From the NCBI GenBank assembly GCA_963848835.1, contig CAWKFB010000006.1, forward strand, positions 180,279-244,278: a DNA stretch of 64,000 bases, written 5' to 3'. The stretch comes from Candidatus Aminicenantes bacterium. GTDB taxonomy: Bacteria; Acidobacteriota; Aminicenantia; Aminicenantales; UBA4085. How positions within the stretch are numbered: position 1 is the stretch's first letter; every line of letters begins with the position of its first letter. A model generated the notes under the pieces. It was not told where the DNA came from. It did no database searches and saw only the letters and a program-made list of their open reading frames with translations. Made by a program: the position numbers and the translations under genes. Of this stretch, positions 9,806 to 61,538 are shown one piece after another.

Positions 9806-9873
9806 GCCGCGTATTCTAGACGATTTCTGTCCGTCGGCAAAGCATACGAAGGAAGGCGGGGCTCCCGGGGTTT

Positions 9874-9923
9874 CGGCAAGGGCGGTCTCGCTCGGCGGGA
9901 AATCCTGACGCTCTGCCTGTCAT
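9874..9923 (+). repeat. repeat module X, copy 1
   Basis: 50 nt matching 53213-53262 with one mismatch. The last 44 nt (GGGCGGTCTCGCTCGGCGGGAAATCCTGACGCTCTGCCTGTCAT) are identical. Confidence 0.85.
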
Positions 9924-9944
9924 TCGAGCTCCTAGGATCGCTCC

Positions 9945-10034
9945 GGGATTGCCCCACGCTCACGTTGGAACCCTTCTGGTTCCCCCCGAATTAGGCGGGG
10001 CCCCCCCTCCTGATGTTCGCTTTGGGGCAATCCC
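9945..10034 (+). repeat. repeat module W, full copy (hairpin-closed, about 90 nt)
   Basis: 12-bp closing helix 9945-9956 / 10023-10034. Inner hairpins GGAACC-CTTCT-GGTTCC (9967-9983) and CCCC-loop-GGGG (9984-10000). Near-identical inverted copy at 53820-53912, with partial copies at 53745-53800 and 39119-39180. Confidence 0.8.
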
Positions 10035-10274
10035 TTCGCTCTCTGAGTCTTCCGTATTTTATGCTTGCAACTGGTCACGTGCTCAAACATTCTCGCGGCG
10101 CCGCTACGCGGGGCTACCCGTCGGAGCTCGGGACGCAGAGCTGGGATTTCCCGATGTCGCTCGAGCCGCCCTCGCCTCTCCGCAAGCTCGCCCTTACGCG
10201 GCTTGTACGTTGGCGCACCGGATCATCCCAAGATGCGTGGGCATGCCGAGCGGACGACTCGGACGATGAAAATC

Positions 10275-10355
10275 GGGACGCTCCCAGGACTCATATAAAT
10301 CATCTACCCCACCTGCCGCCCCTAGAACTCGGGGCGGACTGTCGGTAAGCGTCCC
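10275..10355 (+). repeat. repeat module U, copy 1 (candidate structured RNA/ssDNA element)
   Basis: Closing helix GGGACGCT (10275-10282) / AGCGTCCC (10348-10355). A/T box TCATATAAATCATCTAC. Inner hairpin CCGCCCC-TAGAACTC-GGGGCGG (10316-10337), followed by ACTG..GGTA. Confidence 0.75.
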
Positions 10356-10383
10356 TCCCAGCATGTCGCTCATCAGGGTGACG

Positions 10384-10490
10384 CAGCGAATCGGCCAAGT
10401 CTGTCCGCGGCAGGATTCTCGATCGCCGCCGTAAGATGATTGGGTCGCATGCGTCTGATATTCGGGGCGCGAGGGGGGCTCCCTGAGCGG
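10384..10490 (+). repeat. repeat module Z, copy 1
   Basis: Homologous to the reverse complement of 53316-53415. Shared blocks are GCGAATCGGCC..GTCCGCGGCAGGATTC and GCGTCTGATATTCGGGGCGCGAGGGGGGCTCCCTGAGCG. Confidence 0.7.
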
Positions 10491-10510
10491 GCCAGCGCAG
10501 CGAGCTTACC

Positions 10511-10594
10511 GGGACGCCTTCAAAACTCTCATGCATATTTATCTCTCTCTCCTACCTCTCCCAAGACTAGGAGAGGACTGCTGGTAGGCGTCCC
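10511..10594 (+). repeat. repeat module U, copy 2
   Basis: Closing helix GGGACGCCT (10511-10519) / AGGCGTCCC (10586-10594). A/T box ATGCATATTTATCTC. Inner hairpin CCTCTCC-CAAGACTA-GGAGAGG (10555-10576), followed by ACTG..GGTA. Confidence 0.75.
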
Positions 10595-10741
10595 TCCTAG
10601 TTGAATGGAGTCGAGCGAGAGCGAGCGAGCACGGGGAGCGGATTTTTCTCGCTGGGGAAAATCCGCGTCCCGATCAGGGAGTCCCCCGGGAGCCCCGTCG
10701 GATTCACAAGGTATTCCGGTACGTGCTAACGTTAGCGAGGA

Positions 10742-16957: not shown

Positions 16958-17051
16958 AACCTCTCTGGGCTGATGTTTACCAGAAACGGGGAATCCCGTC
17001 AATCGCGTGCCGGTTGCAAAACGTCTCCCGTTCATCTATAAATAACGGCGC

Positions 17052-18327: not shown

Positions 18328-19324
18328 ATGACGGATGCGATCCGGGTCGAAAACCTCCTCAAACGGTTCGAGGATGTGACCGCCGTGGACCGCATCAGCT
18401 TCTCCGTTCCGCAGGGCGAGCTCTTCGGGCTCCTCGGGCCGAACGGGGCGGGGAAGACGACCACCATCAACATCCTCTCGACGCTCATCCGCCCGACGTC
18501 CGGGACGGCCGAGGTCGGGGGCTACGAAGTGACGCGGAACCGCGACCTCGTCCGTAAGAGCATCGGGATCGTCTTCCAGGAGCCGGCCCTTGACGGCAAG
18601 CTGACCGGCCGGGAAAACCTCGAGTTCCACGCCATGATGTACGGGCTGGACAAGGCCGAGCGGCGAAAGCGGATCGCGGCCGTCCTCGACCTCGTCGAGC
18701 TTTCCGAGAAGGCCGCCGTCCTCGTCGAAAAGTACTCGGGCGGGATGAAGCGCCGGCTCGAGATCGCCCGGGGCCTCATCCATCGTCCGAAGGTCCTCTT
18801 CCTCGACGAGCCGACGCTCGGCCTGGACGCCCAGACCCGCCGCCACATCTGGGAGTACGTCCGCAAGCTCAACAAGGAGAGCGGGGTCACGATCATCCTG
18901 ACGACCCACTACATGGAGGAGGCGGATTTCCTCTGCGACCGGATCGCCATCATGGATCACGGGAAGTTCGTCGCCCTGGACACGGCGCCCCGACTCAAGG
19001 ACGTCCTGGGCGGCGACGTCGTCAGCCTGGAGATCGAATCCGGGCTGGAGCCGTTTCTGGCCCGGGCCCGCGGCCTCGACTGGAATCAAACAAGTCCACA
19101 TCCGCGAGAACGTCCTCCATCTGACCATGGACCGCGGCGAGCGCCGCATCCCCGAGCTTGTCGCCCTGGCCCAGGAGCTCGGGGCCGTCGTTTCCTGCGT
19201 CCATCTCCGCAAGCCGAGCCTCGAGGACGTCTTCCTCCACTTCACCGGCCGGACGATCCGCGACGAAGAGATCAGCGGAGCCGAGCGGAGCCGCGGGATG
19301 ATGAATCCCCACGGGAGACGGTGA
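18328..19324 (+). pseudogene. ABC transporter ATP-binding protein, one +1 frameshift
   Basis: Walker A GPNGAGKTT, signature YSGGMKRRL, Walker B VLFLDEPT. The C-terminal domain continues in the next frame from about 19084 (IKQVHIRENVLHLTMDRGERRIPELV...KPSLEDVFLHFTG) and ends at TGA 19322-19324. Confidence 0.8.
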
Positions 19325-20091
19325 TGGCGATCAGCGGCACGGCGGTCTATGTCCTCTGGCTCCGGGAGATGAAGCGCTATGCCCGGGCCAAGTCCAGGAT
19401 CATCGGCTCGCTCATCCAGCCGCTCTTTTTCCTGGCCTTCCTCGGACTCGGCTTCAACCGGATGGCCGTTCCCGGGGTCGCCAGCGGGGTGGATTATATT
19501 CACTTCCTCGTCCCCGGGATCATCGGAATGAGCCTCCTGTTCTCCTCGTCCATGCAGGGCTTGTCCGTGTTGTGGGACCGTGAATTCGGCTTTCTCAAGG
19601 AGATCATGGTCGCGCCGGTCAGCCGCCTGTCCATCGTCCTTGGGCGGATCGCGGGGGGGACGACGACGACCCTGATCCAGGCTTCCCTCGTCCTCATCGT
19701 GTCTTTGGTCCTCGGCTTCCGCATCAGGAATGCCTGGGGATTCGGGCTCGGACTCGTGTTCATGGTTCTCATCGCCTTCGCCTTCATCGGCATGGGGCTC
19801 ATCTTCGCCTCCCGGATGAAGGACATGCAGGGCTTCGGGCTCATCATGAACTTCGTCATCTTCCCCCTCTTTTTCCTCTCCGGCGCGCTCTACCCCCTGA
19901 AGAACCTGCCTGTCCCGGTCCGGGTTTTATCGCTCATCGACCCATTGACCTACGGCATCGACGGCCTGCGCGGGTGCTTGATCGGATCCGCTGAGCGCCC
20001 CATCTTGATCGACCTCGCCGCCCTGGCCGGCTTCGCCGTCCTGATGCTCGTCCTGGGCGCGTATTTCTTCGAAAAAAGCGAAAGCGTTTGA
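19324..20091 (+). CDS. ABC-2 type transporter permease
   Basis: ATG overlaps the upstream stop (TGATG). Six predicted membrane helices. ABC-2 style N-terminus YVLWLREMKRYARAKSRIIGSLIQP. Confidence 0.85.
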   Translation: MAISGTAVYVLWLREMKRYARAKSRIIGSLIQPLFFLAFLGLGFNRMAVPGVASGVDYIHFLVPGIIGMSLLFSSSMQGLSVLWDREFGFLKEIMVAPVSRLSIVLGRIAGGTTTTLIQASLVLIVSLVLGFRIRNAWGFGLGLVFMVLIAFAFIGMGLIFASRMKDMQGFGLIMNFVIFPLFFLSGALYPLKNLPVPVRVLSLIDPLTYGIDGLRGCLIGSAERPILIDLAALAGFAVLMLVLGAYFFEKSESV

Positions 20092-24287: not shown

Positions 24288-25812
24288 TCAACGAGGGAGC
24301 TTGTCGGCGTAACCCTTGTGACGCGGGAATTCCGCGGCGAGGGAGCGGGTCAGCGCATCGAACCGGGCCGCCGCCTCGCGATAGACGGCCGCGGCGGCGG
24401 GATCGGGCTCGATGACGGGTCCGTCGCGGCGGATGAGCCGTCCCGCGATCTCGGCGATCCCGGTCGTTTCCCCCCGGTCGAGCCCGTGATTCCAGATCGC
24501 CTGGATCGCGGCCCCGTAAGCGGCCGCTTCGCGTTCCGCGGGAACGGAGATGGGCGCGTCCATGACGTCGGCGGCGATGCGCAGCCAGACAGGATTTTCC
24601 GAGCCGCCTCCCGTTGCCCGGAGCTCCGTCGCGGCGAGTCCGAGTGAACGGAGCCGCCGTAATCCGTAGCGCAAGTTCAGACAGATGCCTTCGAACATCG
24701 CCCGGGCGAGGTTCTGAGGCCGGAGATTCCGCGAGGTCAGTCCGAAGAACGCGCCGCTCGCCTCCGGGAGGATAGGCACGCGTTCCCCGTCGAGGTAGGG
24801 GAGATAGATGATCCCTTCCGCACCCGGGGGCGCTTCCGAGGCGGCCGCCGCGAGACCCGCGTGATCGAGCCGGAACAGACGGCGCATCGCGTCCTCGCCG
24901 TTTCCGGCGTTGAGAGTGCAGCTCAGCGGAAGCCACGCTCCCGTGCTGTCGCAAAAGCAGGCGATCTCGCCCCCGGCGTCGACCGCCGGCTTCTCCGCGT
25001 AACATGAGATCGTCCCGGACGTTCCCAGGCTGAGGGTCGCCCCGCCCGGCGAGACATTCCCGGTCCCGATGGCGGCCATCATATTGTCGCCGCCCCCGCT
25101 CGCCACCAGAACCCGCCCGAACCCGAACTTCCGGGCGATCGAGGGCCGGATCGTCCCGGCCGGAGTCCGGGGGTGGACCGGGACGGGCAGGAGGTCCGGG
25201 AGACGAGGATCGATCGTCTCAAGCGCTTCGGTCCGCCAATTTCGCGTCCGGACATCCAATCAGGCCCGTGCCCGACGCGTCGCCGAACTCCATCCGGTAT
25301 TCCCCGGTGAGGTGGAAATTCAGGTAATCGTGGGGGAGGAGGATATGGGCGAGGGCATCGAAGCGGTTCGGCTCGTGGCGCTTCAGCCATAGGATCTTAG
25401 AGGCGGTATAGCCGACGGCCAGCCCGAGGCCGAGCTTTTCGATCGCGCCCGCGGGACCTCCGAGCCGGTCCGTGATTTCGCGCGTCTCTTCGATCGTCGA
25501 CGTGTCATTCCACAGCTTGGCAGGCCGGATCGGGAGGCCGGCGGCGTCGAGCGGCACGAACCCGTGCTGTTGTCCGGATATGCCGACGGCGGCTACATTC
25601 GAGGGATCGATCGAGGATGCACGGATCGCTTCGGCCAGGGCGCTCTCCAGAGCGGCCGTCCACATTTCGGGCCGTTGTTCGCTCGCGCCCGGCGGCAGAC
25701 CGGGGATCATTTCGTGAACGGCCTGGGCCCGCCCGAGCACCCTTCCCGTTTCGGAATCGACGACGAGGACCTTGGTGCTTCCGGTCCCGGAATCCACGCC
25801 GATAGCGATCAT
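24288..25812 (-). pseudogene. xylB: xylulokinase (FGGY family), one +1 frameshift
   Basis: N-terminus MIAIGVDSGTGSTKVLVV...ISGQQHGFVPLD...GDASGTGL. It continues in the next frame as MDVRTRNW...GGGDNMMAAIGTGNV. There is an extra T at about 25258 (ctgaTTggatg). Length check: 1525 nt minus 1 gives 1524 nt. Confidence 0.8.
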
Positions 25813-34302: not shown

Positions 34303-34878
34303 ATGACCCTCCAAGAGTTGATCCGCAAGCGCCGGACCATCCGGCAATTCGGTCCCCAGCCGGTCGCTCCTGAGGCTTTGTCCAGGATCGTCGACGCCGG
34401 CCGCCTGGCGCCCTCCGCGGCCAACCATCAGCCGCTCGAGTTCATCGCTGTCGACCGTGAAGACCTGCGGGCGAAGATCTATCCCGGTCTGAAATTCGCC
34501 TCGGCGATCGCCCCCGCGGGCTTTCCCCGGCCGGGCAACGAGCCGAAGGCCTATATCTTCACCCTCGTCAACCTGAAGATCCGGGAGAAGATGTACGAAT
34601 ACGACGTCGGGGCGGCGATGGAGAACATGTGCCTCGCCGCGCTGGCCGAGGGGCTCGCGAGCGCTTGGATCATCTCCATCGACCGGGCGGCCATGGCCGA
34701 GCTGTTGGGCGTTCCGGTGGAATACAAGATCGACTCCGTCTTGGCTTTAGGATATCCGGCCCAGGAATCGATCGCCGAGGTCTCGACCGAGACGACGACG
34801 TACTGGCAGGACGAGGATCTGACCTTCCACGTCCCGAAGCGTCCCCTCTCGGCCGTGCTCCACATCAACAAATTCTAG
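34303..34878 (+). CDS. nitroreductase family protein
   Basis: RRTIRQFGPQPV...RLAPSAANHQPLEFI is the classic nitroreductase FMN-binding N-terminus. 191 aa. Confidence 0.85.
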   Translation: MTLQELIRKRRTIRQFGPQPVAPEALSRIVDAGRLAPSAANHQPLEFIAVDREDLRAKIYPGLKFASAIAPAGFPRPGNEPKAYIFTLVNLKIREKMYEYDVGAAMENMCLAALAEGLASAWIISIDRAAMAELLGVPVEYKIDSVLALGYPAQESIAEVSTETTTYWQDEDLTFHVPKRPLSAVLHINKF

Positions 34879-34965
34879 AAATCGCTGCCAGTCATCTGAA
34901 TACGCCAATTTTCCGGACCGTGAAACAGCGAAATAGGCTTATTCAGATGACTGGCACCGATTTCT
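34877..34965. terminator. long palindrome H2 at a convergent gene junction (candidate bidirectional terminator or palindromic repeat)
   Basis: 26-bp arms at 34877-34902 and 34940-34965 (AGAAATCGCTGCCAGTCATCTGAATA) with one C-C mismatch, and a 37-nt loop. Starts inside the nitroreductase stop codon and ends 17 nt before the pmbA stop. Confidence 0.45.
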
Positions 34966-34981: not shown

Positions 34982-36335
34982 CTAGGATCCGGCGATGAGC
35001 ATCTCGGCGACCTTGATAGTCGGGCCGCAGATCGAGCCGCGGAACTCGAGGTCGCTTCCGACCATCTCGATCCCCTTGAGGACTTCGTCCAGGTTCCCCG
35101 AAATCGTGATCTCGGAGACGGGATAAGCGATCTCGCCCTTTTCGATCCACAGGCCGAAGGCGCCCCGGGAGATGTCCCCGGTCACCGGATTCAACCCGTG
35201 GCCGAGCGTCCGGATGAGGAGAAGCCCCTCGGCGCAGGACCGGATGATCTCGTCGGGCGAATGAGGCCCGGCTTCCATGTAGAAGTTATTAGGCCCGGCG
35301 CCCGATCCGGCCGCGTTGCCCGTGGACGTCCTGCCCAGCTTCCGGGCGGCGTAGGTGTCGCACAGGAAGCTCTCCAGGATGCCGGCCGTCACGACCTTCG
35401 TCCGCCGGCAGGGGAGGCCCTCCGCGTCGAACGGGCTCGATCCGGGGCGGCGCGGCATCAGGCCGTCGTCGACGATCGTGATCCGATCGCTCGCGATGTG
35501 CGTCCCGAGACGCTCGGCGAGATACGTCGACCGTTGATAGACCGACGTCCCCGAGACGCAGGAAAAGAGGAAGCCCAGCAATCCCGACGTCATGAGCGGC
35601 TCGAAGATGACCGGAACACGGCGGGTCGCGGATCTTGCGCGGGCTGAGCTGCCGGACGGTCCGGGCGATCGCGGTCCGGGCGATCTTCTCGGGAGGGTCG
35701 AGGTCGCGAAAGTGCGTCTCCGCCGAAAACCAGAAATCCTCGACCTTGTCGTCGGTCGGACCGGCCTGGAGGGCTAGGCTCAGGTCGAAGTGCGTCCGGC
35801 GGAATTCGCCCAGGAAGCCGTTCGAGCTCGCCAGGACGGAGCGCGAATCGCCCGAGGAGAATCCCGCCCCATAGCTGTTGGTGATCCGCTTGTCGGCCAG
35901 GGCGATCCGCTCGGTTTCGAGGGCCAGGCCGATCTTCGTCCTCGGATCGAGCCTCTCGATCTCCGGATCGAAGAGGTCGAGCGCGGCCGGATCGATCCCG
36001 GCCGTGGCGAGCTCGGGCAGGCCGGAGAACGGATCGGGATTGGCCAGCTCGGCGCGCCGGACGGCGTTCCGGATGAGCTCGTGGACCGTTTCCTCCCGGA
36101 GGTCCGAGGACGAGGCGAAGGCGGTCTTGTGGTCCTTGATGACCCGGAAGCCGAGCCCGCGGCTCCCGGCTTCGACCAGGTTCTCGATCTCGCCCATCCG
36201 GATGTCGACAGAGAACTCGACCCCGTCGCCGATCGCGAGCTCGATCTCGTCCGCGCCCGCGCGCCGGCCGAAGTCGACGAGCTTCGCGGCTAGGTCGAGA
36301 AGCGGGCTTGCCGCGGCTCCCAGAGGGGCGCTCAT
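34982..36335 (-). pseudogene. pmbA: PmbA/TldE metalloprotease subunit, one +1 frameshift
   Basis: N-terminal part MSAPLGAAASPLLDLAAKLVDFGRRAGADEIEL... joins the C-terminal part ...TRRVPVIFEPLMTSGLLGF...GPTIKVAEMLIAGS at about 35627. The ATG overlaps the tldD stop (ATGA). Length check: 1354 nt minus 1 gives 1353 nt. Confidence 0.8.
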
Positions 36336-37784
36336 TCGCGTCCTCCGACGGTCATCTTGGAGATCTTGATCGTCGGGCAGCCGTCCATGACCGGGACATC
36401 CTGGCCTTCCTTGCTGCACGTGCCCGTCTGTTGGCTCCAGTCCAGATCGTCGCCGACCATCTCGATCCTGCGGAGGATGTCGAGGTTCGACCCGATGAGG
36501 GTCGCCTGCTTGACCGGGGCGGTCAGGCGGCCGTCCTCGATCAGGAATCCCGAGCTGACGGAGAACGTGAACTTGCCCGAGTCCTCGACCTGGCCGCCTT
36601 GGAACCGGTCGGCATAGAATCCCTTTTTCACCGAGCGTATGATCTCTTCGGGCGGAGTCTCGCCCGGATCGATATAGGTGTTGGCCATGCGCGGGATGGG
36701 GATGTCCGTGTAGTCCTGCCTCCTCCCGTGGCCCGTCGGCTTCATCTTGAGGATCCGCGCGGACAGGCGGTCCTGGAGGAGCCCCCGGACGACGCCGCGC
36801 TCGATGAGCGTGGCTTTGCCCGGGACCGTCCCTTCGTCGTCGATGCTATAGGAGCCGCGGAAGGACGGAATGGTCGGATCGTCGTGGATCGTCACGAGCG
36901 CCGAGCCGACCTTTTTGCCGATCTTGTCCCAGAAGACCGAGGTCTTCTTGCGGATGAAATCCGCTTCGAGGAGGTGGCCGACGGACTCGTGGATGAGCAC
37001 TCCGGCGTGGCCGGGCGAGAGGACGACGGGCATCTCGCCCGCGGGCGCCGGCCGGGCGTCGAGAAGCTGAAGGGCTTCCTCCGCCGCTTCCCGGCCGATC
37101 TCCTCGGGTGTCAGGACGCGGGAGAAATGCTCGAGGCCGACACGGCCTCCGCCGCCCGAGAAGCCGTACTCCCGCAGGCCCGCCTTCTCGGCGATGGCCA
37201 CGCAGGTCAGCTTGACCATCGGCCGCTCGTCGGAGGCGAGATGGCCTTCGGAATCGGCGACGAGAAGGCGCTGCATGCCGCTTTGGAAACCGGCTTTGAC
37301 CTTGTGGACCGCCGGATCGGCGGCCTGGCAGGCGGCGTAAGCCGACCGGACGAGGGCGATCTTGGCTTCGAGCGGGGCCGAGGCCGGCGGCAACTTCGAC
37401 GCGGAAGGGGCTCGGGACGGGACCGATCACGCGAAGATCGGCGGCCTTCGCCGAGGGGGACGAGGCCGCGATGGCGGCCGCGGAGCGCGCGGCCTGGCGG
37501 AGTCTCTCCGGAGAAAGGTCGTTCGTATATCCGTAGCCCGTCTTCTCTCCGGAAAGGACCCGGATCCCGACGCCGAGGGAAACGCTCTCGGATGTGTCCT
37601 TGATGATGTCCTCTTCCATGAAGATGGACTCGTGGGTCCGGTATTCGGCGAAAATCTCGGCGAAATCGCCGCCGGAAGCGAGCGCGGCGTCCAGGACCTG
37701 GCGCAGGAGGGTCGGGGTCAGGCCAAAGCGGTCTTCGAAGGAGAACATGTCGGCCATTCTGGCATAGATAAGCGGCTCCCGCAA
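36332..37784 (-). pseudogene. tldD: TldD metalloprotease, one +1 frameshift
   Basis: HESVGHLLEADF (HExxxH) and the GFYADRFQGGQV...GTCSKEGQ core. The N-terminal and C-terminal frames join at about 37393. Start is TTG at 37784 or ATG at 37757. Confidence 0.8.
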
Positions 37785-37808
37785 GAAGGGCTCCGGGATT
37801 GTACCTTT

Positions 37809-37969
37809 CCCGAAGCGCCGACGATTCCCTTTGCCCGTGCCGCTTTCGGATTTTCGTATTGATTTCTACCCCCCAGCCCCCCTACGACAAACAGGGGGGA
37901 TTTGAAAGCGGCTCGGGAAAGGTGTGCAGGGGGGAGAAGATCAATAAGGAAATTTGGGGGCGCTTCGGG
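37809..37969. repeat. nested head-to-head pair of V-type repeat units
   Basis: Outer helix CCCGAAGCGCC (37809-37819) / GGCGCTTCGGG (37959-37969). Inner unit at 37828-37922 has its own roughly 18-bp helix, an A/T box GTATTGATTTCTA and hairpin CCCCCC-TACGACAAACA-GGGGGG. A second A/T box TTATTGATCTTCTCC reads on the minus strand (37935-37955). Confidence 0.7.
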
Positions 37970-37993
37970 CCATCTTCGGAAATCGCCCCACGC

Positions 37994-39025: not shown

Positions 39026-39118
39026 GGCCGTATCTTCGCATTGTCGTTCGGGGCCCGTCAACCCAATCGAGCGCCCACGATAATGGATTGTGGGCTCCCG
39101 GTGAAGAGGGTCAAGGGG

Positions 39119-39180
39119 AGCGAACATCACGGAAGGGGGGCCCCTTTGGGGGGAACCGGGACGGGTTCCCCCGTGAGCGT
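39119..39180 (-). repeat. repeat module W, partial copy without closing helix
   Basis: GCGAACATCACGGAAGGGGGGCCCC..GGGGGGAACC-GGGACG-GGTTCC..CGTGAGCG aligns with 53832-53898 and with the reverse complement of 9956-10020. Indels relative to the other copies break any common reading frame. Confidence 0.65.
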
Positions 39181-39290
39181 TGAGTCATCCCGTAGCTCTC
39201 CTTGTTTGACCCGGTTCATCATGATATTCTGAAACTCCAAAAATGGGACCGATCATCGGCATTTTCCCGCTCTTCGCCCAGGAGGCCGAC

Positions 39291-52555: not shown

Positions 52556-53140
52556 TCAGTCGGCCGACCAATCGATCGGCCCGAACTTCTGTTCGATCTC
52601 TTTGGTCAAGTCGGTGATCTTCGCTTTCAGGATGTAGAGATCCTGCATCTGGCCGGTCTGGTCCTTGACATAATCCGGAAGGATGCTCTGGTCGTGGAAA
52701 CCCATCTTCCGGGCCAGGTTGAGGGCGGCTTCCTGCGGTTTCATCATCCAGACCGTGACCGTTTCCACGTTCTTTCGTAGGGCGAGCCTGTAGAGCTCCC
52801 GCATCAGGATCATGCCCACGCCGCGGCGCTGGAACGCCGGGGCGATGATCACCCTCAGCTCTCCCTGGTGGCGCCTCCATTCTTCGAAAGGCAGCTCCAG
52901 GACGCCTTTGCCGATGATCGCGCCGCCGGTTTCGGCCAGGATCCGGAAGTGGTAGCCGAAGTCCATGAGCTTGATCCGCTGCTCCATGGTCTTGCGGTTG
53001 GTCACGTCGATCCGGAGATAGCGCCGGTCTTCGGGCGGGAGGGTCGCGTAGAAATTCATCAGGGCCTCGAAATCCTGCTTGGGGTCCATGTCCCGGATGG
53101 TAATCTCCGCGCCGTCCTTCAAGACTTCGCGCTTGAGCAT
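52556..53140 (-). CDS. GNAT family N-acetyltransferase
   Basis: Acetyl-CoA motif FQRRGVGMILMRE. 194 aa. GGAAGAGGAGGG lies upstream of the ATG. Confidence 0.8.
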   Translation of the reverse strand: MLKREVLKDGAEITIRDMDPKQDFEALMNFYATLPPEDRRYLRIDVTNRKTMEQRIKLMDFGYHFRILAETGGAIIGKGVLELPFEEWRRHQGELRVIIAPAFQRRGVGMILMRELYRLALRKNVETVTVWMMKPQEAALNLARKMGFHDQSILPDYVKDQTGQMQDLYILKAKITDLTKEIEQKFGPIDWSAD

Positions 53141-53212
53141 GATCCCTCCTCTTCCTTCCTGATTCGACTATAGGTCCGCCCCCCTCCGTTGTCAAGAAAG
53201 TTCGGGATGGAT

Positions 53213-53262
53213 CGGCGAGGGCGGTCTCGCTCGGCGGGAAATCCTGACGCTCTGCCTGTCAT
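53213..53262 (+). repeat. repeat module X, copy 2
   Basis: Matches 9874-9923 (49 of 50 nt, with 44 contiguous identities). Followed at 53272-53285 by CGGGGCTCCCGGGG, which precedes X in the other island. Confidence 0.85.
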
Positions 53263-53315
53263 CGAAAAGAACGGGGCTCCCGGGGGCTCCCCCGGCTCAC
53301 GAAGAATGTTCGCCT

Positions 53316-53415
53316 TAGGGAGCCCCCTCGCGCCCCGAATATAAGACGCGGACGTCCTGCGAGTTTTCGTCGATCTCGGTGAATCCTGCCGCGGACGGCT
53401 CGGCCGAATTCGCCG
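53316..53415 (-). repeat. repeat module Z, copy 2
   Basis: Its reverse complement aligns with 10384-10490. Confidence 0.7.
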
Positions 53416-53540
53416 CATCCTTCCCCCGACCCGGGGGACCCCATCCGGCTCATCGTCCGAGTCGTCCGTACGTCAGGCGCGCGCTCCCAATGGCCGATCG
53501 TGGGACGGTGAGCGAAGATATCGCCATCGTACCTGCGGGA

Positions 53541-53623
53541 GGGACGCCTACCTGCAGTCCCTTCGAGTCGTAGAAGGGGAAGGGGATGTAGAGAATTATA
53601 GATAAGATTCCGGAAGGCGTCCT
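53541..53623 (-). repeat. repeat module U, copy 3
   Basis: Read on the minus strand: AGGACGCCT ... TATAATTCTCTAC ... CCCTTC-TACGACTC-GAAGGG ... ACTGCAGGT-AGGCGTCC. Same architecture as 10275-10355 and 10511-10594. Confidence 0.75.
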
Positions 53624-53648
53624 GGTCTTATGCGCGGTCCGAAGATCG

Positions 53649-53731
53649 CCCGAAGCGCCCCCCGAATTTCTTTATTGATATTCTCCTCCCTGCCCCCCAA
53701 CTAACATGGGGGGATTCGTCGGCGCTTCGGG
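53649..53731 (+). repeat. repeat module V (U-like unit with a different closing helix)
   Basis: CCCGAAGCGCC (53649-53659) / GGCGCTTCGGG (53721-53731), plus CGAAT/ATTCG. A/T box TTTATTGATATTCTCC. Hairpin CCCCCC-AACTAACAT-GGGGGG. Related copies at 37809-37969 and 23080-23125. Confidence 0.7.
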
Positions 53732-53744
53732 AAAGGAACGAACC

Positions 53745-53800
53745 CGCGCTTCGCGGAGGGAACCCGCTCGGATTCCCCTTGTGAGCATTGGGGCAATTCT
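53745..53800 (-). repeat. repeat module W, second degenerate copy
   Basis: Minus strand reads AATTGCCCCAATGCTCAC-AAG-GGGAATCC-GAGC-GGGTTCCC-TCCGCGAAGCG, which parallels the 5' half of W. Confidence 0.5.
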
Positions 53801-53819
53801 GAAAAACTCTCCGGGCGGA

Positions 53820-53912
53820 GGGATTGCCCATAAAGCGAACATCAGGAGGGGGGGCCCCGCCTAATTCGGGGGGGAACCAGGAGGGTTCCAACGTGAGCTT
53901 ATGGGCAATCCC
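53820..53912 (-). repeat. repeat module W, full copy (inverted relative to 9945-10034)
   Basis: Closing helix GGGATTGCCCAT/ATGGGCAATCCC. Hairpins GGAACC-CTCCT-GGTTCC and CCCC-GAATTAGGC-GGGG. The tail CCTCCTGATGTTCGCTTT is conserved. Confidence 0.8.
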
Positions 53913-53978
53913 GAAGCCGTTTGACTTGGACCCTACGGGTTCATATCATACGTCCGGCTCGAAAAGGAGAATCCATCC

Positions 53979-55241
53979 ATGATCCACAGCCCGCTGAAGA
54001 TGATCGCGCTCATGACCCTTGCCGCGGCCTCGGTACTCGCCCTGGGCGCCGCGGCCCAGGACGCGGCCGGCGACCCGACCCTCCGTCTCAAGCTCGGCGA
54101 TCCGCGCTTCAAGGACAAGACCCTCGATATCCCCGCCGACAGTCTCGTTTCGGTCGAGACGGGGAAGCCGGTGCCCTTCGCCAAGATGATCGAGGAGATG
54201 AAAGCGGCCCGGATCATCCACGTCGGCGAGACCCATAACTCCAAGCCCATCCACGATTTCCAGGCCCGAATCATCCGGGCCCTGTACGCACAGGACCGCG
54301 GCCTCGTCATCGGCCTGGAGATGTTCCCGGCGACGATGCAGGACGTCCTCAACAGGTGGAGCCTGGGCATCCTGTCCGAGGAGGAGTTCATCCGAGAAGC
54401 CCGCTGGTACGTCACCTGGAACTTCAACTTCGGCTTCTACCGCGACGTCTTCGTCTTCGCCAAGGAGAACCGCATCCCGATCTACGGCTTGAACGCTCCG
54501 CGGGAGATCATCACCAAGATCCGGATGAAGGGCTGGGACTCTCTGACGGACGAGGAAAAGGCCCTTGTCCCGAAGCCCGACCTGACCCACGCCGAGCACC
54601 GGGAGCTCATGAAGCAGATCTTCGGCGGCGCGGAGATGCCCCACGCCATGGCAGGAGCTGGCGGCGCGGAGGCGATGTTCGAGGGCCTCTACCGGGCCCA
54701 ATCGGCTTGGGACGAGGTCATGGGCTCGAACGCCGCCGCGATCACCGAGCGGGAGCGGAAGAAGATGGTCGTCCTGGTGGGGTCCGGGCACCTGATCTAC
54801 AACCTCGGCCTCAACCGGCGGGCGTACGAGAAGAGCAAGCTGCCCTTCAAGACGGTCATCGGCGTGTTCGTCGACAAGAGTAAGACGGTCGAAACCGTCG
54901 CCCGTAGCCTGGGGGATTATCTCTTCGGCATCGCCGAGGAAGCGCGGCCGGCGTATCCCTCGATCGGGATCGGATTCAAGAAGGTCAAAGACCTCGACAA
55001 CCTCTTCGTCGAGACGAAGCCCATCGATGGCGTCGCGAGGGGCCAGGACATCGAAAAGGGAGACATCGTCCTGACCGTGGACGGCCGGACTTGGACGGAC
55101 GCGAACGAGCTCCGGACTTATCTGGCCGCCCTTCCTTGGGACGGAGAAGTCAAGCTCCACATCCTGCGCGCGGGCGTGGAGAAGGACGTGACGCTCAAGA
55201 TCACGATGAGCCCGCCCCCTCCGCCGCCGGCGAAAAAGTGA
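53979..55241 (+). CDS. ChaN-like (haem-binding uptake/Tiki superfamily) protein with C-terminal PDZ domain
   Basis: Signal peptide. IIHVGETHNS and VLVGSGHLIYNLGL are typical of the ChaN family. PDZ-like IGIGFKK...GDIVLTVDG. Proline-rich tail PPPPPPAKK. Confidence 0.65.
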   Translation: MIHSPLKMIALMTLAAASVLALGAAAQDAAGDPTLRLKLGDPRFKDKTLDIPADSLVSVETGKPVPFAKMIEEMKAARIIHVGETHNSKPIHDFQARIIRALYAQDRGLVIGLEMFPATMQDVLNRWSLGILSEEEFIREARWYVTWNFNFGFYRDVFVFAKENRIPIYGLNAPREIITKIRMKGWDSLTDEEKALVPKPDLTHAEHRELMKQIFGGAEMPHAMAGAGGAEAMFEGLYRAQSAWDEVMGSNAAAITERERKKMVVLVGSGHLIYNLGLNRRAYEKSKLPFKTVIGVFVDKSKTVETVARSLGDYLFGIAEEARPAYPSIGIGFKKVKDLDNLFVETKPIDGVARGQDIEKGDIVLTVDGRTWTDANELRTYLAALPWDGEVKLHILRAGVEKDVTLKITMSPPPPPPAKK

Positions 55242-58987: not shown

Positions 58988-61538
58988 ATGCTGGAATCGT
59001 ACCGGAAGAATGAGGAAGAACGGCGCGCTCTGGGCATCCCACCCCTGCCCTTGAGCCCCGAAGAGACGGCCGAGGTCTGCCGGCTCCTCGAAGCCCCGCC
59101 GCCGGGCGTGGGACCGGATCTCCTCGCCCTCCTCCGCGACCGGGTTTCGCCGGGGGTGGATCCCGCGGCCAAGGTCAAAGCGGAATGGCTCGCCCGCGTC
59201 GCTTCGGGCTCGGTCTCTTCGCCGGCCCTTTCCCGGTCCGAAGCCGTCGCCCTCCTGGGCACGATGCTCGGCGGCTACAACGTCGCTCCGCTCGTCGGCT
59301 TGCTCGACGATCCCCAGCTCGGTTCCGAGGCCGCCCGTGCCCTCGGCCGGACCGTTCTCGTCTATGGCGCTTTCGACAAGGTCGCCGACATGGCGGCTTC
59401 GCACCAGAACGCCAAGGCCGTCATGCGCGCCTGGTCCGAGGGGGAGTGGTTCCTGTCGCGTCCGCCCCTGCCGGAGAGCGCGACCCTGACCGTTTTTCGC
59501 GTCGACGGAGAGATCAACACCGACGACTTTCTCTCCGGCAAAGCAAGCTTCGACGCGGCCCGACATTCCGCTCCACGCCCTGTCGATGGGACAGACGCGC
59601 TTCCCCGGCGGTCTCGCGGCGATCGCGGGCTTCAGAGCCGCGGGCAAGCGCGTAGTCTTCGTCGGCGACGTGGTCGGCACCGGCTCGTCCCGGAAATCGG
59701 CCTGCAACTCGGTTATGTGGCACATCGGCGAGGACATTCCCTTCGTCCCCAACAAGCGCCGCGGCGGGATCGTCCTGGGCGGGAAGATCGCCCCGATCTT
59801 CTTCAACACCACGGAGGACTCCGGCGGGCTGCCGATCGGAGAGGTCGACGTGAACGGGATGAAAATGGGAGATGAGATCGTCTTGGACCTCAAAGCCGGG
59901 GTCATCCGCGGCGCGGGCGGAAAGGTGTTATCACACTTCAGCCTCAAACCGGCCACGCTCCCCGACGAGTTCCGAGCCGGCGGCCGATTGAACTTCATCA
60001 TCGGCCGGGCCTTGACCAACAAGGCGCGAGCCCGTCTGGGGCTTCCCGAAGCCGAATTCTTCACCCGCGTTGAAAACCCAAAACCCAAGCCGGCTCAGGC
60101 GTATTCGCTGGCCCAGAAGATCGTCGGCCGGGCCTGCGGCCTCCCCGGCGTCCTGCCCGGGACGGCATGCGAGCCGAAGATGACCACGGTCGGGTCCCAG
60201 GACACGACCGGGCCCATGACCGCCGACGAGCTCAAGGAGCTGGCCTGCCTGGAGTTCCAGTGCGGCCTGTTCATGCAGTCGTTCTGCCACACCGCCGCCT
60301 ATCCCAAGCCCGCCGACGTGAAGATGCACCGAACCCTGCCGGGTTTCATGATCGAGCGGAAGGGCGTGGCCCTCAATCCCGGCGACGGCGTCATCCATTC
60401 CTGGCTCAACCGCCTGCTCCTGCCCGACACGATGGGCACGGGCGGCGATTCGCACACCCGATTCCCGATCGGCCTCAGCCTGCCGGCCGGGTCCGGCCTC
60501 GTCGCCTTCGCCGGAGCGCTCGGGTTCATGCCGCTCGACATGTACGAGTCCGTCCTCGTCCGCTTTCGCGGGACTCGCCGGCCCGGGATCACCCTCCGCG
60601 ACGTCGTCAACGCCATTCCCTATTTCGCCATCAAGGAAGGGCTCCTGACCGTGGCCAAGAAGGGCAAGAAGAACGTCTTCAATGATCGGATCCTCGAGAT
60701 CGAAGGGCTGGACGATCTGACCGTGGACCAGGCCTACGAGCTGACCGACGCCTCCGCCGAGCGCTCGGCGGCCGGAAGCGTCATCGCCCTCAAGGTCGAA
60801 GCCGGTGGCCCGTTTCCTCCGGAGCAACGCCGCCCTGATGAAGAAGATGATCGAGGCCGGCTACCGGGACGCAGAGACGCTCAAGCGCCGGATCGACGCC
60901 TGCGAGGCCTGGCTGGCCAAGCCGTCCATGATCGAACGGGACGCCAAAGCTGAATATGCCGCCGTCCTCGAGATCGACCTGGCACGATATCCGCGAGCCG
61001 ATCCTGGCCTGCCCGAACGATCCCGACGACGTCAAGCTCCTGTCGGACGTCGCCGGCGACCGCATCGACGAAGCCTTCATCGGCTCCTGCATGGTCAACA
61101 TCGGCCATTTCCGGGCCGCCGGCCGCATCTTCGACAAGGCGCCGCTATCCCGAAGACGCGGATCTGGATCACGCCGCCGACGAAGATGGATGATGATCCA
61201 GCTCAAGAAAGAAGGATATTATTCGATCTTCTCCCAGGTCGGGGCGCGGACGGAGATCCCCGGCTGTTCGCTCTGCATGGGCAACCAGGCCCGCGTCGCA
61301 GCCCGGCGCGACCATCATCTCGACCTCGACGCGCAATTTCGACGACCGGATGGGGGACGGGGCGCGGGTCTACCTCGGCTCGGCCGAGCTCACCGCCCTC
61401 GCGGCCCTGAAGGGCCGGCTGCCCGCGGCCGAAGAGTACTTCACGGTCATGAAGGAAAAGGTCCTCCCCGCCGCGGCCGACATCTATCGCTACCTTCAGT
61501 TCGACGAAATGAAGGATTTCACTCTGATCTATGCCTGA
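58988..61538 (+). pseudogene. acnB: aconitate hydratase 2 / 2-methylisocitrate dehydratase, six frameshifts
   Basis: Collinear with E. coli AcnB from MLESYRK to the C-terminus ([103 protein letters not shown]). Shifts near 59530, 60801, 60985, 61141 (-1), 61190 and 61300. Length check: 2551 nt minus 5 plus 1 gives 2547 nt. Confidence 0.85.

What the first reader, a model, noticed from the sequence alone, without database searches (positions are those of the whole stretch)
53213..53912. Second mosaic island, collinear with the first when read on the opposite strand but with module X flipped
The 838-bp gap between GNAT (-) and the ChaN-like gene (+) is also gene-free.

- **Order on the minus strand:** W (53912-53820), a degenerate W (53800-53745), V, U3 (53623-53541), about 125 nt, Z (53415-53316), P, then X in reverse.
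- **Comparison with island A:** the W-U-Z order is kept, but the island is inverted relative to its flanking genes. The P-X pair sits at the other end in the other orientation.
- **Local arrangement:** U3 (minus) and V (plus) are back to back, with their 5' ends 26 bp apart.

Two divergent promoter regions 43 kb apart share this architecture. That suggests either a mobile composite element or a common regulatory or structural role.
Basis: seen in the sequence. Interest (0 to 1): 0.68.

Follow-up and report, generated by a model that had tools for sequence, protein, structure and literature searches.

The report
Nested hairpin repeats filling promoter gaps
The 838-base gene-free gap is real and is built from a previously undescribed family of small, hairpin-folding DNA repeats of an uncultured Aminicenantes bacterium; the repeats nest inside one another and pile up between back-to-back promoters, much like the known REP/BIME and MITE repeats of other bacteria.

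Summary
Island B (53196-53920) shares modules X, W, U, Z and a short Y with island A (9806-10741). X is direct and the rest are inverted, at 73-98% identity, far beyond chance or low complexity.

- **More copies in the window:** V recurs at 37794-37980 and W at 39101-39197.
- **Host:** a Candidatus Aminicenantes genome.
- **Insertion polymorphism:** in syntenic relatives the GNAT/ChaN gap is 135 bp (empty), 664 bp (a different mosaic), or holds a gene. The miniW-Z-Y-U-V block of island B sits 5 kb away, in the Ldh/aconitase gap, in one relative. Island B lies exactly between the two -35 boxes.
- **Structure:** U (about 90 nt, three nested helices) and W (about 100 nt, three-way junction) recur on many metagenome contigs, with covarying stems and invariant unpaired bases. 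V and U sit inside loops of W scaffolds.
- **Negative searches:** no Rfam match, no coding potential, and no transposase in the DNA held.

Best reading (about 0.55): non-autonomous, structure-dependent interspersed repeats that nest and accumulate upstream of promoters. They are akin to REPIN/BIME or MITE elements but meet the tested defining features of none of them.

Open lead: the 3' end of W abuts an outward -35 box in 7 of 20 scaffolds; the 5' end never does.

The parts
53167..53195 (-). Core promoter of the GNAT gene (TTGACA-17-TATAGT). This is the left boundary of island B.
   Evidence: Promoter scan, 11 of 12 matches. It is conserved in L002, L004 and L007.
53212..53262 (+). Module X. 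Its CGCCCTCGCC end lies 18 nt from the GNAT -35.
   Evidence: 50/51 identical and direct to 9873-9923. Further copies at L002 9402-9458 and L002 15080-15127.
53273..53336 (-). The core GGCTCACGAAGAATGTTCGCC is closed by the stem GGGGGCTCCC/GGGAGCCCCC.
   Evidence: W covariance model scores 32 bits. The same 21-nt core, with a different complementary stem, is at L004 14926-14970.
53314..53419 (.). Module Z.
   Evidence: 73% to rc of 10380-10487. Its 3' part is 95% identical to L004 15023-15060.
53420..53535 (.).
   Evidence: 86% to L004 15064-15176. Its core 53450-53484 is 83% to rc of 10235-10269.
53536..53625 (-). Module U (U3). Three nested helices: GGGACGCC/GGCGTCCC, CTACC/GGTAG, and a covarying inner hairpin with loop TACGACTC.
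   Evidence: Covariance model R1 scores 85.6 bits, E 4e-21. Covariation on 19 copies.
53636..53806 (+). W::V composite.
   Evidence: V is 96% identical to L004 15298-15397 and 91% to L002 9826-9922. The architecture is seen in L010, L019, L021 and L002.
53815..53918 (+). Full W. It is a three-way junction: P1 GGGATTGCCCAT/ATGGGCAATCCC, an invariant GCGAAC/GTGAGC segment, the variable hairpin P2, and P3 GGAACC/GGTTCC. It is preceded by the linker GAAAAACTCTCCGGGCGGA (53801-53819).
   Evidence: Model R2 scores 104.7 bits. Fold z-score -4.6. Covariation.
53921..53949 (+). Core promoter of the ChaN-PDZ gene (TTGACT-17-TATCAT). This is the right boundary of island B and starts 3 nt after W.
   Evidence: Promoter scan, 10 of 12 matches. 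It is conserved in L002, L004 and L007.
9873..9923 (+). Island A: module X.
9939..10039 (-). Island A: full W. Its 3' end points towards the OYE-type oxidoreductase gene.
   Evidence: Model R2 scores 109.8 bits. The orthologous gap in L015 also has a W(-).
10124..10176 (-). Island A: X', a diverged inverted copy of X. X..X' bracket about 300 bp with W nested inside.
   Evidence: Local alignment. The same X..X' pair without W is at L002 9402-9648.
10273..10360 (+). Island A: U1.
   Evidence: Model R1 scores 91 bits.
10380..10487 (.). Island A: Z (reverse complement of island B's Z).
10509..10599 (+). Island A: U2.
   Evidence: Model R1 scores 95.4 bits.
37794..37980 (-). Island C. It lies between the TldD and LPG-synthase genes, both on the minus strand. 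A V on the minus strand is split by a nested V-like copy on the plus strand (37835-37919).
   Evidence: blastn 87-89% for the two halves. Sequence. Alignment.
39101..39197 (+). A further W copy, just upstream of the rhamnosidase gene.
   Evidence: Model R2 scores 69.7 bits. Sequence.

Best explanation
Island B is not one element. It is a pile-up of small, non-coding, structure-dependent interspersed repeats of an Aminicenantes lineage. The families are X, mini-W, Z, Y, U, V and W.

**Shown**
- Each well-sampled module folds into a defined multi-helix hairpin. Its stems covary and its loops and junctions are invariant.
- The modules are present or absent at orthologous sites in close relatives.
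- They nest inside one another. V sits in the P2 hairpin of W. U sits after AACATC or in the P3 loop of W. V sits in V, and W sits in the X..X' element.
- Whole blocks sit at different loci in different genomes.
- In this window they occupy exactly the dispensable DNA between two back-to-back -35 boxes.

**Inferred mechanism**
- The modules are non-autonomous mobile DNA, copied in trans by an enzyme encoded elsewhere in the genome.
- That enzyme reads the folded single strand or cruciform: conserved junction bases plus stems of any sequence. This is how HUH/Y1 transposases read REP/REPIN and IS200/IS605 ends.
- Exposed loops of resident copies and promoter-upstream DNA are the preferred or the only tolerated targets.
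- The result is mosaic islands that grow until they hit the -35 boxes.
- The different orientation of X versus W/U/Z in A and B follows from independent insertions, each with its own polarity towards the nearest promoter. It does not need an inversion of a composite.
For: **Repeat modules are real and multi-copy**
-.
- U: 25 distinct copies in 204 kb held, and 16 of 22 exact-pattern metagenome hits are full U copies.

**Structure is conserved through compensatory change**
- U: 96.9% of cells paired, 6 pairs with double changes, and 0 of 500 shuffles reach the covariation score.
- W: 94.6% paired, 7 pairs with double changes, 0 of 500 shuffles.
- Mini-W copies share a 21-nt core but have unrelated complementary stems.

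**Insertion polymorphism at the GNAT/ChaN gap**
- 135 bp in L004, with 19 bp between the -35 boxes.
- 664 bp in L002.
- 838 bp in the window.
- A Peptidase_S74 gene in L007.

**Insertion polymorphism at the Ldh/aconitase gap**
- Empty in the window and in L007.
- 386 bp in L002.
- 692 bp in L004, where it carries island B's block.

**Nesting:**

**The island lies exactly between the two -35 hexamers, with no sigma-70-like promoter inside**.

**No sign of another role**
- No shared function among flanking genes.
- Module orientation relative to flanking genes is mixed.
- No strand signal from G-U versus A-C pairs, 10 against 7. This fits a DNA-level palindrome.
- No Rfam family.
- No coding potential.
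Against: - **No transposase.** None was found among 38 window ORFs. E. coli RayT finds nothing in 223 kb of held Aminicenantes-like DNA. A single-copy enzyme would easily be missed in this sample.
- **No unambiguous target-site duplication** at any filled or empty junction.
- **W is unusually elaborate.** Its three-way junction, with an invariant GCGAAC/GUGAGC segment that could form tandem G-A pairs, is more complex than any known transposase-recognised hairpin and looks RNA-like.
- **V is more conserved than expected.** It is 96% identical between the window and L004, against 75-80% at four-fold degenerate sites of flanking genes. This means either selection on the copy or recent movement.
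- **W scaffolds show polarity towards promoters.** An outward sigma-70-like promoter starts 2-7 nt after the 3' end in 7 of 20 scaffolds and next to the 5' end in 0 of 20. Pure selfish insertion does not predict this.
- **Copy number per genome is unknown.** Only 64 kb of this genome is available.
Confidence: 0.55

Rival explanations
1. The modules are host cis-acting DNA elements of promoter regions. They would be docking sites for a nucleoid-associated or regulatory protein, or cruciform-forming insulators that absorb the negative supercoiling generated between divergent promoters. They would be kept by selection, with W placed directly upstream of -35 boxes.
For: - Island B fills exactly the space between two divergent -35 hexamers.
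- About 9 module-bearing gaps are divergent, 9 tandem and only 1-2 convergent. REPs favour tandem and convergent gaps (PMC3733652).
- The 3' end of W (..CCCGGAGC) lies 2-7 nt from an outward promoter in 7 of 20 scaffolds, against 0 of 20 at the 5' end.
- A TCCCGGAGC-like motif sits 3-5 nt upstream of the GNAT -35 in all four genomes, including the 'empty' L004.
- X keeps the same end towards the nearest -35 in all 4 copies.
- V is more conserved than four-fold degenerate sites.
- W persists next to the OYE promoter in L015, at 78.5% flank identity.
Against: - Close relatives have functional-looking promoters with no modules at all (L004 GNAT/ChaN; the window and L007 Ldh/aconitase).
- Module content at one promoter differs completely between relatives.
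- Flanking genes share no function.
- Some W copies face gene 3' ends or lie in convergent gaps.
- Abutting the -35 is partly expected if islands simply expand until they reach an essential element.
Confidence: 0.2
2. U, W and V are genes or domains of structured non-coding RNAs. W would be a scaffold with a variable P2/P3 expansion. They would be transcribed from unrecognised promoters and act as RNA.
For: - Multi-helix consensus structures with covarying stems and invariant unpaired nucleotides.
- Length variation is confined to hairpin tips, as in many RNAs.
- U and V share an AT-rich box followed by a pyrimidine tract resembling an anti-Shine-Dalgarno sequence.
- Folding z-scores of -4 to -6.
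Against: - No sigma-70-like promoter or intrinsic terminator is associated with any module.
- In islands A and B the modules lie upstream of both flanking promoters, so those promoters do not transcribe them.
- Orientation relative to neighbouring genes is mixed.
- G-U versus A-C counts give no strand preference (10 against 7).
- Copies are gained and lost between close relatives, and half-copies and nested copies are common. This is atypical for RNA genes.
- No Rfam match, even at E up to 10.
Confidence: 0.12
3. Islands A and B are two copies of a single composite transposon or a segmental duplication, with X later inverted by recombination.
For: - W, U and Z appear in the same relative order on opposite strands.
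- A 375-470-bp block does occur at another locus in L004.
Against: - Identities of the shared modules differ widely (X 98%, W 88%, Y 83%, U 74%, Z 73%).
- Y and U are in swapped order.
- A has X', U2 and about 300 nt with no counterpart in B. B has V, a W half and a mini-W with no counterpart in A.
- There are no common termini.
Confidence: 0.05
4. The finding is an artefact: low-complexity G/C similarity, or a misassembled duplicate.
For: The window does contain several genes split by frameshifts. Homopolymer lengths in the modules may therefore be unreliable.
Against: - Matches are long and complex, with E down to 5e-29.
- Copies are diverged and rearranged.
- The same modules are found in independent JGI, ENA and Logan assemblies.
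Confidence: 0.02

Closest known systems
REP / REPIN elements and their BIME clusters (Enterobacteria, Pseudomonas); RAYT (Y1 HUH) transposases
   Same: - Intergenic, non-coding, multi-copy palindromic units.
- Stems are kept by compensatory change.
- Units are clustered into mosaics with conserved linkers.
- They persist at a locus over long times while content turns over (REP properties from PMC3733652; abstracts listed).
- U even contains GTAG and CGTC.
   Different: - Units here are 57-175 nt with two or three helices and a three-way junction, not 20-40-bp single hairpins.
- GTAG and CGTC lie inside helices, not as an unpaired end tag.
- Gaps carrying them are mostly divergent or tandem and promoter-proximal, not downstream or convergent.
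- No RAYT was found in the DNA held.
Bacterial MITEs that nest and fold (Correia/NEMIS of Neisseria, ERIC/IRU, RUP) - from my own knowledge
   Same: - Size of 50-300 bp, terminal inverted repeats and long stem-loop potential.
- Nested insertions.
- Location next to promoters, with possible effects on them.
- The X..X' element (about 240-300 bp, roughly 50-bp imperfect terminal inverted repeats) looks most MITE-like.
   Different: - No clear target-site duplication.
- No parent insertion sequence with the same ends.
- Internal hairpins covary wholesale while loops stay invariant. Transposases that read only the terminal repeats do not require this.
BOX elements of Streptococcus pneumoniae (boxA-boxB-boxC) and RIME of Rhizobium - from my own knowledge
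   Same: - Modular, mosaic intergenic repeats built from a few structured sub-units in variable number and order.
- Often close to gene starts.
   Different: - Unrelated sequence and different host phylum.
- Here the modules nest inside each other's loops rather than only abutting one another.
IS1397/ISKpn1-type insertion into REP loops, and IS200/IS605 derivatives (PATEs) - from my own knowledge
   Same: - Hairpin loops of resident repeats serve as insertion targets.
- Folded single-stranded ends are recognised.
   Different: - The inserted units here are themselves tiny non-coding hairpins.
- No conserved 4-5-nt target flanks one end at a fixed distance.

Membership tests
REP / REPIN-RAYT | The unit is a single 20-40-bp imperfect palindrome (a REPIN is two inverted REPs). 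| tested here: not met
   U is about 90 nt with three nested helices. W is about 100 nt with a three-way junction. W::V is about 170 nt. Definition taken from PMC3733652.
REP / REPIN-RAYT | An unpaired GTAG or CGTC tag at one end of the palindrome. | tested here: not met
   U has ..GGTAGGCGTCCC.., but GTAG pairs with CTAC (P2) and CGTC lies in P1. W, V and X have no such tag.
REP / REPIN-RAYT | A cognate single-copy RAYT (Y1 transposase) gene flanked by the repeats. | tested here: inconclusive
   No transposase domain in 38 window ORFs. tblastn with E. coli RayT against 223 kb gives nothing below E 0.8. The rest of the genome is not retrievable.
REP / REPIN-RAYT | Predominantly downstream of genes, in tandem or convergent gaps. 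| tested here: not met
   About 9 divergent, 9 tandem and 1-2 convergent gaps. Islands A and B lie upstream of both flanking promoters.
REP / REPIN-RAYT | High copy number (over 100 per genome). | not testable with these tools
   Only 64 kb of this genome is held. It carries 3 U, 3 full W plus 1 W::V plus 1 mini-W, 3 V, and 2 X plus X'.
BIME-type mosaic cluster | Clusters of palindromic units combined with a small set of conserved linker motifs, in variable number and order. | tested here: met
   Recurrent junctions are U-TGCAGGTCGGCGAC-W and W-GAAAAACTC..GCGGA-W. Combinations vary across L009-L028 and the window.
BIME-type mosaic cluster | Regular alternation of unit orientation. | tested here: not met
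   U(+)-W(+) and W(+)-W(+) tandems are common, and orientation is mixed elsewhere.
MITE | Terminal inverted repeats bounding a short non-coding unit. | tested here: met
   W has 12-14-bp arms and U has 8-bp arms. X and X' are about 50 nt and about 70% alike.
MITE | A target-site duplication of fixed length. | tested here: inconclusive
   Filled and empty sites were compared. Only a doubtful TGCC repeat is seen in L004, and no clean single-module insertion is available.
MITE | A parent insertion sequence with the same termini. | not testable with these tools
   This needs the whole genome or a taxon-restricted search. None is present in the DNA held.
Any Rfam RNA family (ribozymes, riboswitches, sRNAs) | A match to a curated covariance model. 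| tested here: not met
   Only a tRNA reaches gathering score in the window. Islands A and B give only noise at E 0.9-9.
IS200/IS605-derived PATE | Insertion 3' of a fixed 4-5-nt target with strict strand orientation. | tested here: inconclusive
   The 3' end of W lies next to TTGAC-like hexamers, but at a variable 2-7 nt. Both orientations occur within 64 kb.

The most novel reading that the evidence does not exclude
W (with its passengers U and V) is a new class of structured nucleic-acid element that docks, in a fixed polarity, 2-7 nt upstream of -35 boxes. In effect it would be a mobile 'promoter-upstream module'. Its three-way junction, with an invariant GCGAAC/GUGAGC core, would be read by a still unknown protein or act as RNA or cruciform to tune or insulate neighbouring promoters in Aminicenantes.
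Probability: 0.2. Interest if true: 0.7.

Novelty: new variant of a known kind. Interest (0 to 1): 0.48.

Why it matters
- **A repeat system in a phylum with none described.** Aminicenantes (OP8) is an uncultured, widespread sediment phylum, and a full-text search found no paper on its repeats. This gives it a family of interspersed structured repeats, with ready covariance models for U and W.
- **Assembly and annotation.** It explains why the long intergenic regions of these genomes are long. It also flags sequences that will break short-read assemblies and mislead gene callers and searches for non-coding RNAs.
- **Biology.** Three features go beyond classic REP/BIME or MITE behaviour: modules nest inside each other's loops, stems change wholesale around invariant junction bases, and W shows polarity towards -35 boxes. 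These make two questions testable. What enzyme or host factor reads such folds? Do mobile hairpins shape promoter architecture?

Tried and rejected
- **Rfam.** Gathering threshold on the whole window, and E up to 10 on both islands: nothing but a tRNA.
- **tRNA/tmRNA scan.** Only tRNA-Leu.
- **GTDB genome scan with a W pattern.** One chance hit in Vreelandella, so the host species is not among the representatives.
- **Retrieving more of the same genome.** The ChaN protein and its identical database twin are 'not on record' for contig look-up. The cluster look-up gave no accession.
- **Viral contigs.** The U tail gave two chance matches and the W core none.
- **Target-site duplications.** None convincing.
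- **Strand assignment from G-U versus A-C pairs.** Neutral, 10 against 7.
- **Promoters or terminators inside modules.** None.
- **Small proteins in the island.** No Pfam hit.
- **Transposase or RAYT search.** Negative in what is held.
- **U as a peptide gene on the opposite strand.** Rejected, because the ATG is not conserved among copies.
- **Hammerhead-like reading of CUGAUG in W (opposite strand).** Rejected: the helices do not have the hammerhead order, and Rfam gives no hit.
- **IHF-site reading of the AT-rich box of V and U.** Rejected: the consensus WATCAANNNNTTR is not met.
- **Strict orientation of W towards the downstream gene.** Only about 7 of 11 assessable copies, so not significant. 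The tighter -35 abutment test is what shows polarity.
Full report

Yes. The gap between the GNAT acetyltransferase gene (minus strand, 52556-53140) and the ChaN-PDZ gene (plus strand, 53979-55241) is 838 bp. None of its ORFs hits a Pfam family.

- X: 53212-53262 equals 9873-9923 in direct orientation, 50 of 51 bases.
- W: 53803-53917 equals the reverse complement of 9940-10051, 87.8% over 115 nt, E 5e-29. A 42-nt stretch is identical.
- Z: 53314-53419 against 10487-10380, 73%.
- A short piece I call Y: 53450-53484 against 10269-10235, 83%.
- U: 53538-53626 against 10597-10508 (74%) and against 10359-10298 (73%).

The 'degenerate W' is a true W 3' half. W, U and Z are thus collinear on opposite strands while X keeps its orientation.

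- Y and U are in swapped order.
- Island A contains a second, inverted, diverged X (X', about 10124-10176).
- The modules are not limited to two islands. V recurs at 37794-37980 and a further W lies at 39101-39197.

The matches are complex sequence, not G/C runs.

**2. Whose genome, and what do relatives show?**

The ChaN protein has hundreds of homologues. Those that carry a name are called Candidatus Aminicenantes or Acidobacteriota MAG proteins. An identical protein sits on a 374-kb NCBI/ENA contig whose DNA could not be fetched.

Three syntenic relatives could be read:

| Relative | ChaN identity | GNAT/ChaN gap | Ldh/aconitase gap (5 kb downstream) |
|---|---|---|---|
| L002 | 86% | 664 bp: X, X', U, a truncated W, V and a W end | 386 bp, holding an X and other material |
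| L004 | 84% | 135 bp; the two -35 hexamers are 19 bp apart | 692 bp, holding miniW-Z-Y-U-V |
| L007 | 78% | holds a Peptidase_S74-domain gene | 152 bp, with the two -35 boxes touching |
| window | - | 838 bp (island B) | about 155 bp, empty |

The L004 block is collinear with window 53293-53740 at 81.5%, with V at 96%. So the same block sits in one gap in the window genome and in the neighbouring gap in L004, and the other gap is empty in each.

A contig orthologous to the flank of island A (L015, 78.5% identity) also has a W on the minus strand next to the oxidoreductase promoter. It is followed by a U rather than preceded by an X.

The promoter scan places island B exactly between the GNAT promoter (TTGACA-17-TATAGT, 53195-53167) and the ChaN promoter (TTGACT-17-TATCAT, 53921-53949). 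It finds no promoter inside the island. Island A is similar.

**3. Anatomy of the modules**

*U.* An exact-pattern scan of JGI metagenomes with the U tail gave 22 loci. Sixteen are full U copies and six are chance hits in coding DNA.
- Nineteen distinct copies align into an element of about 90 nt.
- Outer helix: GGGACGCC/GGCGTCCC.
- An AT-rich box follows, then helix CTACC/GGTAG.
- The inner hairpin has a 7-bp stem that changes wholesale between copies (CCTCCCC, CCTTCCC, CCGCCCC, CCCCTCC, CCCCTTC ...), while the loop TAGGACTC and the tail GGACTGCNGGTAGGCGTCCCTCC stay fixed.
- 96.9% of cells pair, six pairs show double changes, and no shuffle of 500 reaches the observed covariation.
- A covariance model finds 25 distinct copies in 204 kb, including contigs of 55-57% G+C.

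*W.* Ten W copies give a three-way junction.
- P1 covaries: GGGATTGCCCAT/ATGGGCAATCCC, GGTATCACCCAT/TGGGTGATACC, GGGATCGCCCAT/ATGGGCGATCCC ...
- An invariant GCGAAC opposite GTGAGC could hold tandem G-A pairs.
- There is a single-stranded AUCAGGAGGGGGG stretch.
- P2 is a hairpin of free sequence, and P3 is a conserved GGAACC/GGTTCC hairpin.
- 94.6% of cells pair and no shuffle of 500 reaches the covariation score.

*Nesting.* The W model also recovers long hits in which another module sits inside the scaffold.
- V occupies P2 in L010, L019, L021 and L002.
- U sits after AACATC, and a second inverted U sits in the P3 loop, in L014 and L027.
- A different insert of about 170 nt occupies L018.
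- Mini-W copies (window 53273-53336; L004 14926-14970) keep the core GGCTCACGAAGAATGTTCGCC with unrelated complementary stems.
- Island C is a V interrupted by a V-like copy in the opposite orientation.
- The U model weakly hits V (16-22 bits), and the two share an architecture.
- X and X' bracket about 240-300 bp, and in island A this unit carries W inside it.

**4. What it is not**

- No Rfam family matches, even at E up to 10.
- No phage contig carries the modules.
- G-U versus A-C counts in U helices are 10 against 7, so they give no strand preference.
- Orientation relative to neighbouring genes is mixed, and flanking genes have unrelated functions.
- In islands A and B the modules lie upstream of both promoters, so the flanking genes' promoters do not transcribe them.

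This argues against riboswitch-like or mRNA-embedded roles, and weakens a plain RNA-gene reading.

**5. Most likely mechanism**

The best-supported reading is a set of non-autonomous, structure-dependent interspersed repeats that insert into promoter-distal intergenic DNA and into the loops of resident copies. The result is mosaic islands that grow until they reach essential promoter elements.

*Shown:* multi-copy families, structure kept by compensatory change, presence or absence at orthologous sites, nesting, relocation of a block, and exact filling of the space between -35 boxes.

*Inferred:* mobilisation in trans by an enzyme that reads folded single strands or cruciforms, as Y1/HUH transposases do for REP/REPIN and IS200/IS605 ends (background from PMC3733652, and the abstracts listed). 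DNA between divergently firing promoters is negatively supercoiled, which would favour hairpin extrusion there (my inference).

*Weak points:*
- No transposase in the DNA held.
- No convincing target-site duplication.
- W is more elaborate than known transposase substrates.

**6. The strongest counter-lead**

W scaffolds are polar with respect to promoters.
- In 7 of 20 scaffolds a sigma-70-like promoter pointing away from W begins 2-7 nt after its 3' end (..CCCGGAGC). These are window ChaN, its L002 orthologue, L027, L018, L014, L010 and L021.
- None of the 20 has such a promoter at the 5' end.
- The background rate of such promoter matches is 0.8% per position.
- The -35 boxes are resident, not delivered by W. 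The ChaN TTGACTT is present in L004 and L007 without W.
- A TCCCGGAGC-like motif also sits 3-5 nt upstream of the GNAT -35 in all four genomes, including the empty site.
- V is 96% identical between the window and L004, while four-fold degenerate sites of the flanking genes are 75-80% identical.

These facts keep a host-function reading alive (promoter-upstream architectural or regulatory DNA). I put it at about 0.2.

**7. Comparison with known systems**

The islands work like BIME or RIME clusters of REP-type palindromes, like nested MITEs, and like the modular BOX elements.

They are not members of REP/REPIN as defined: unit size, the unpaired GTAG/CGTC tag and the genomic location were all tested and not met. 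MITE membership is open, because terminal inverted repeats are present but a target-site duplication and a parent insertion sequence are unresolved.

A full-text search found no description of repeats in Aminicenantes. I therefore rate this a new variant of a known kind.

**8. Caveat on sequence quality**

Several genes of the window are split by frameshifts.
- Aconitase is in at least four frames, while EF-G, IleRS and Ldh are intact.
- FGGY kinase, PmbA, TldD and a PfkB-type kinase appear as overlapping pieces.

These are either pseudogenes or indel errors. In the second case, homopolymer lengths inside the G/C runs of the modules are not reliable. The modules themselves are confirmed in independent assemblies.

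Noticed in passing
window 53918/53921; L002 9940; L027 2357; L018 1380; L014 5883; L010 1563; L021 406: The 3' end of W-type scaffolds (..CCCGGAGC) lies 2-7 nt from an outward-facing sigma-70-like promoter in 7 of 20 scaffolds. The 5' end never does (0 of 20). The -35 boxes are resident, because they are also present in relatives that lack W.
   Followed up: partly
L004 9905-9925 (empty GNAT/ChaN site); window 53196-53215; L002 9385-9412; L007 2925-2950: A TCCCGGAGC-like motif, identical to the W 3' terminus, sits 3-5 nt upstream of the GNAT -35 in all four genomes, including the one with no island. It may be a relic of a W arm or part of the promoter.
   Followed up: partly
window 58988-61535: The aconitase B gene is broken into at least four reading frames relative to the intact 847-aa orthologue of L002. 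Neighbouring EF-G, IleRS, Ldh and PHP genes are intact. It is either a pseudogene or local indel errors.
   Followed up: partly
window 24288-25812; 34982-36419; 36332-37784; 15481-17035: FGGY kinase, PmbA, TldD and a PfkB/cytidylyltransferase gene each appear as two overlapping ORFs that carry successive domains. This suggests frameshifts, from assembly indels or gene decay, at a high density for 64 kb.
   Followed up: no
L007 3107-3820: In this relative the GNAT/ChaN gap holds a 237-aa ORF with a Peptidase_S74 domain (a tail-fibre chaperone type) instead of repeats. The gap accepts different kinds of foreign DNA.
   Followed up: no
window 53636-53750 vs L004 15298-15397: V is 96% identical between two genomes whose four-fold degenerate sites are only 75-80% identical. 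V is either constrained or recently exchanged.
   Followed up: partly
L014 (57% G+C) and L023 (55% G+C): Contigs with much lower G+C than the window (65%) carry high-scoring U copies (80-105 bits), up to five on one 14-kb contig. The family spans compositionally distinct lineages.
   Followed up: no
window 34877-34965 and 567-660: There are two long, near-perfect inverted repeats (35-nt arms at 91% and 31-nt arms at 90%) in short gaps at gene ends. They are unrelated to the island modules and are probably bidirectional terminators or another repeat type.
   Followed up: no
L009, L015, L018, L019, L021, L025 (for example L018 1069-1180): A recurrent higher-order unit is U(+) - TGCAGGTCGGCGAC - W(+). 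In island B, U and the W::V scaffold are instead back to back.
   Followed up: partly
window 18328-20091: A single 587-aa ORF carries both an ABC ATPase domain and an ABC-2 permease domain. It is either a natural fusion or a lost stop codon between two genes.
   Followed up: no
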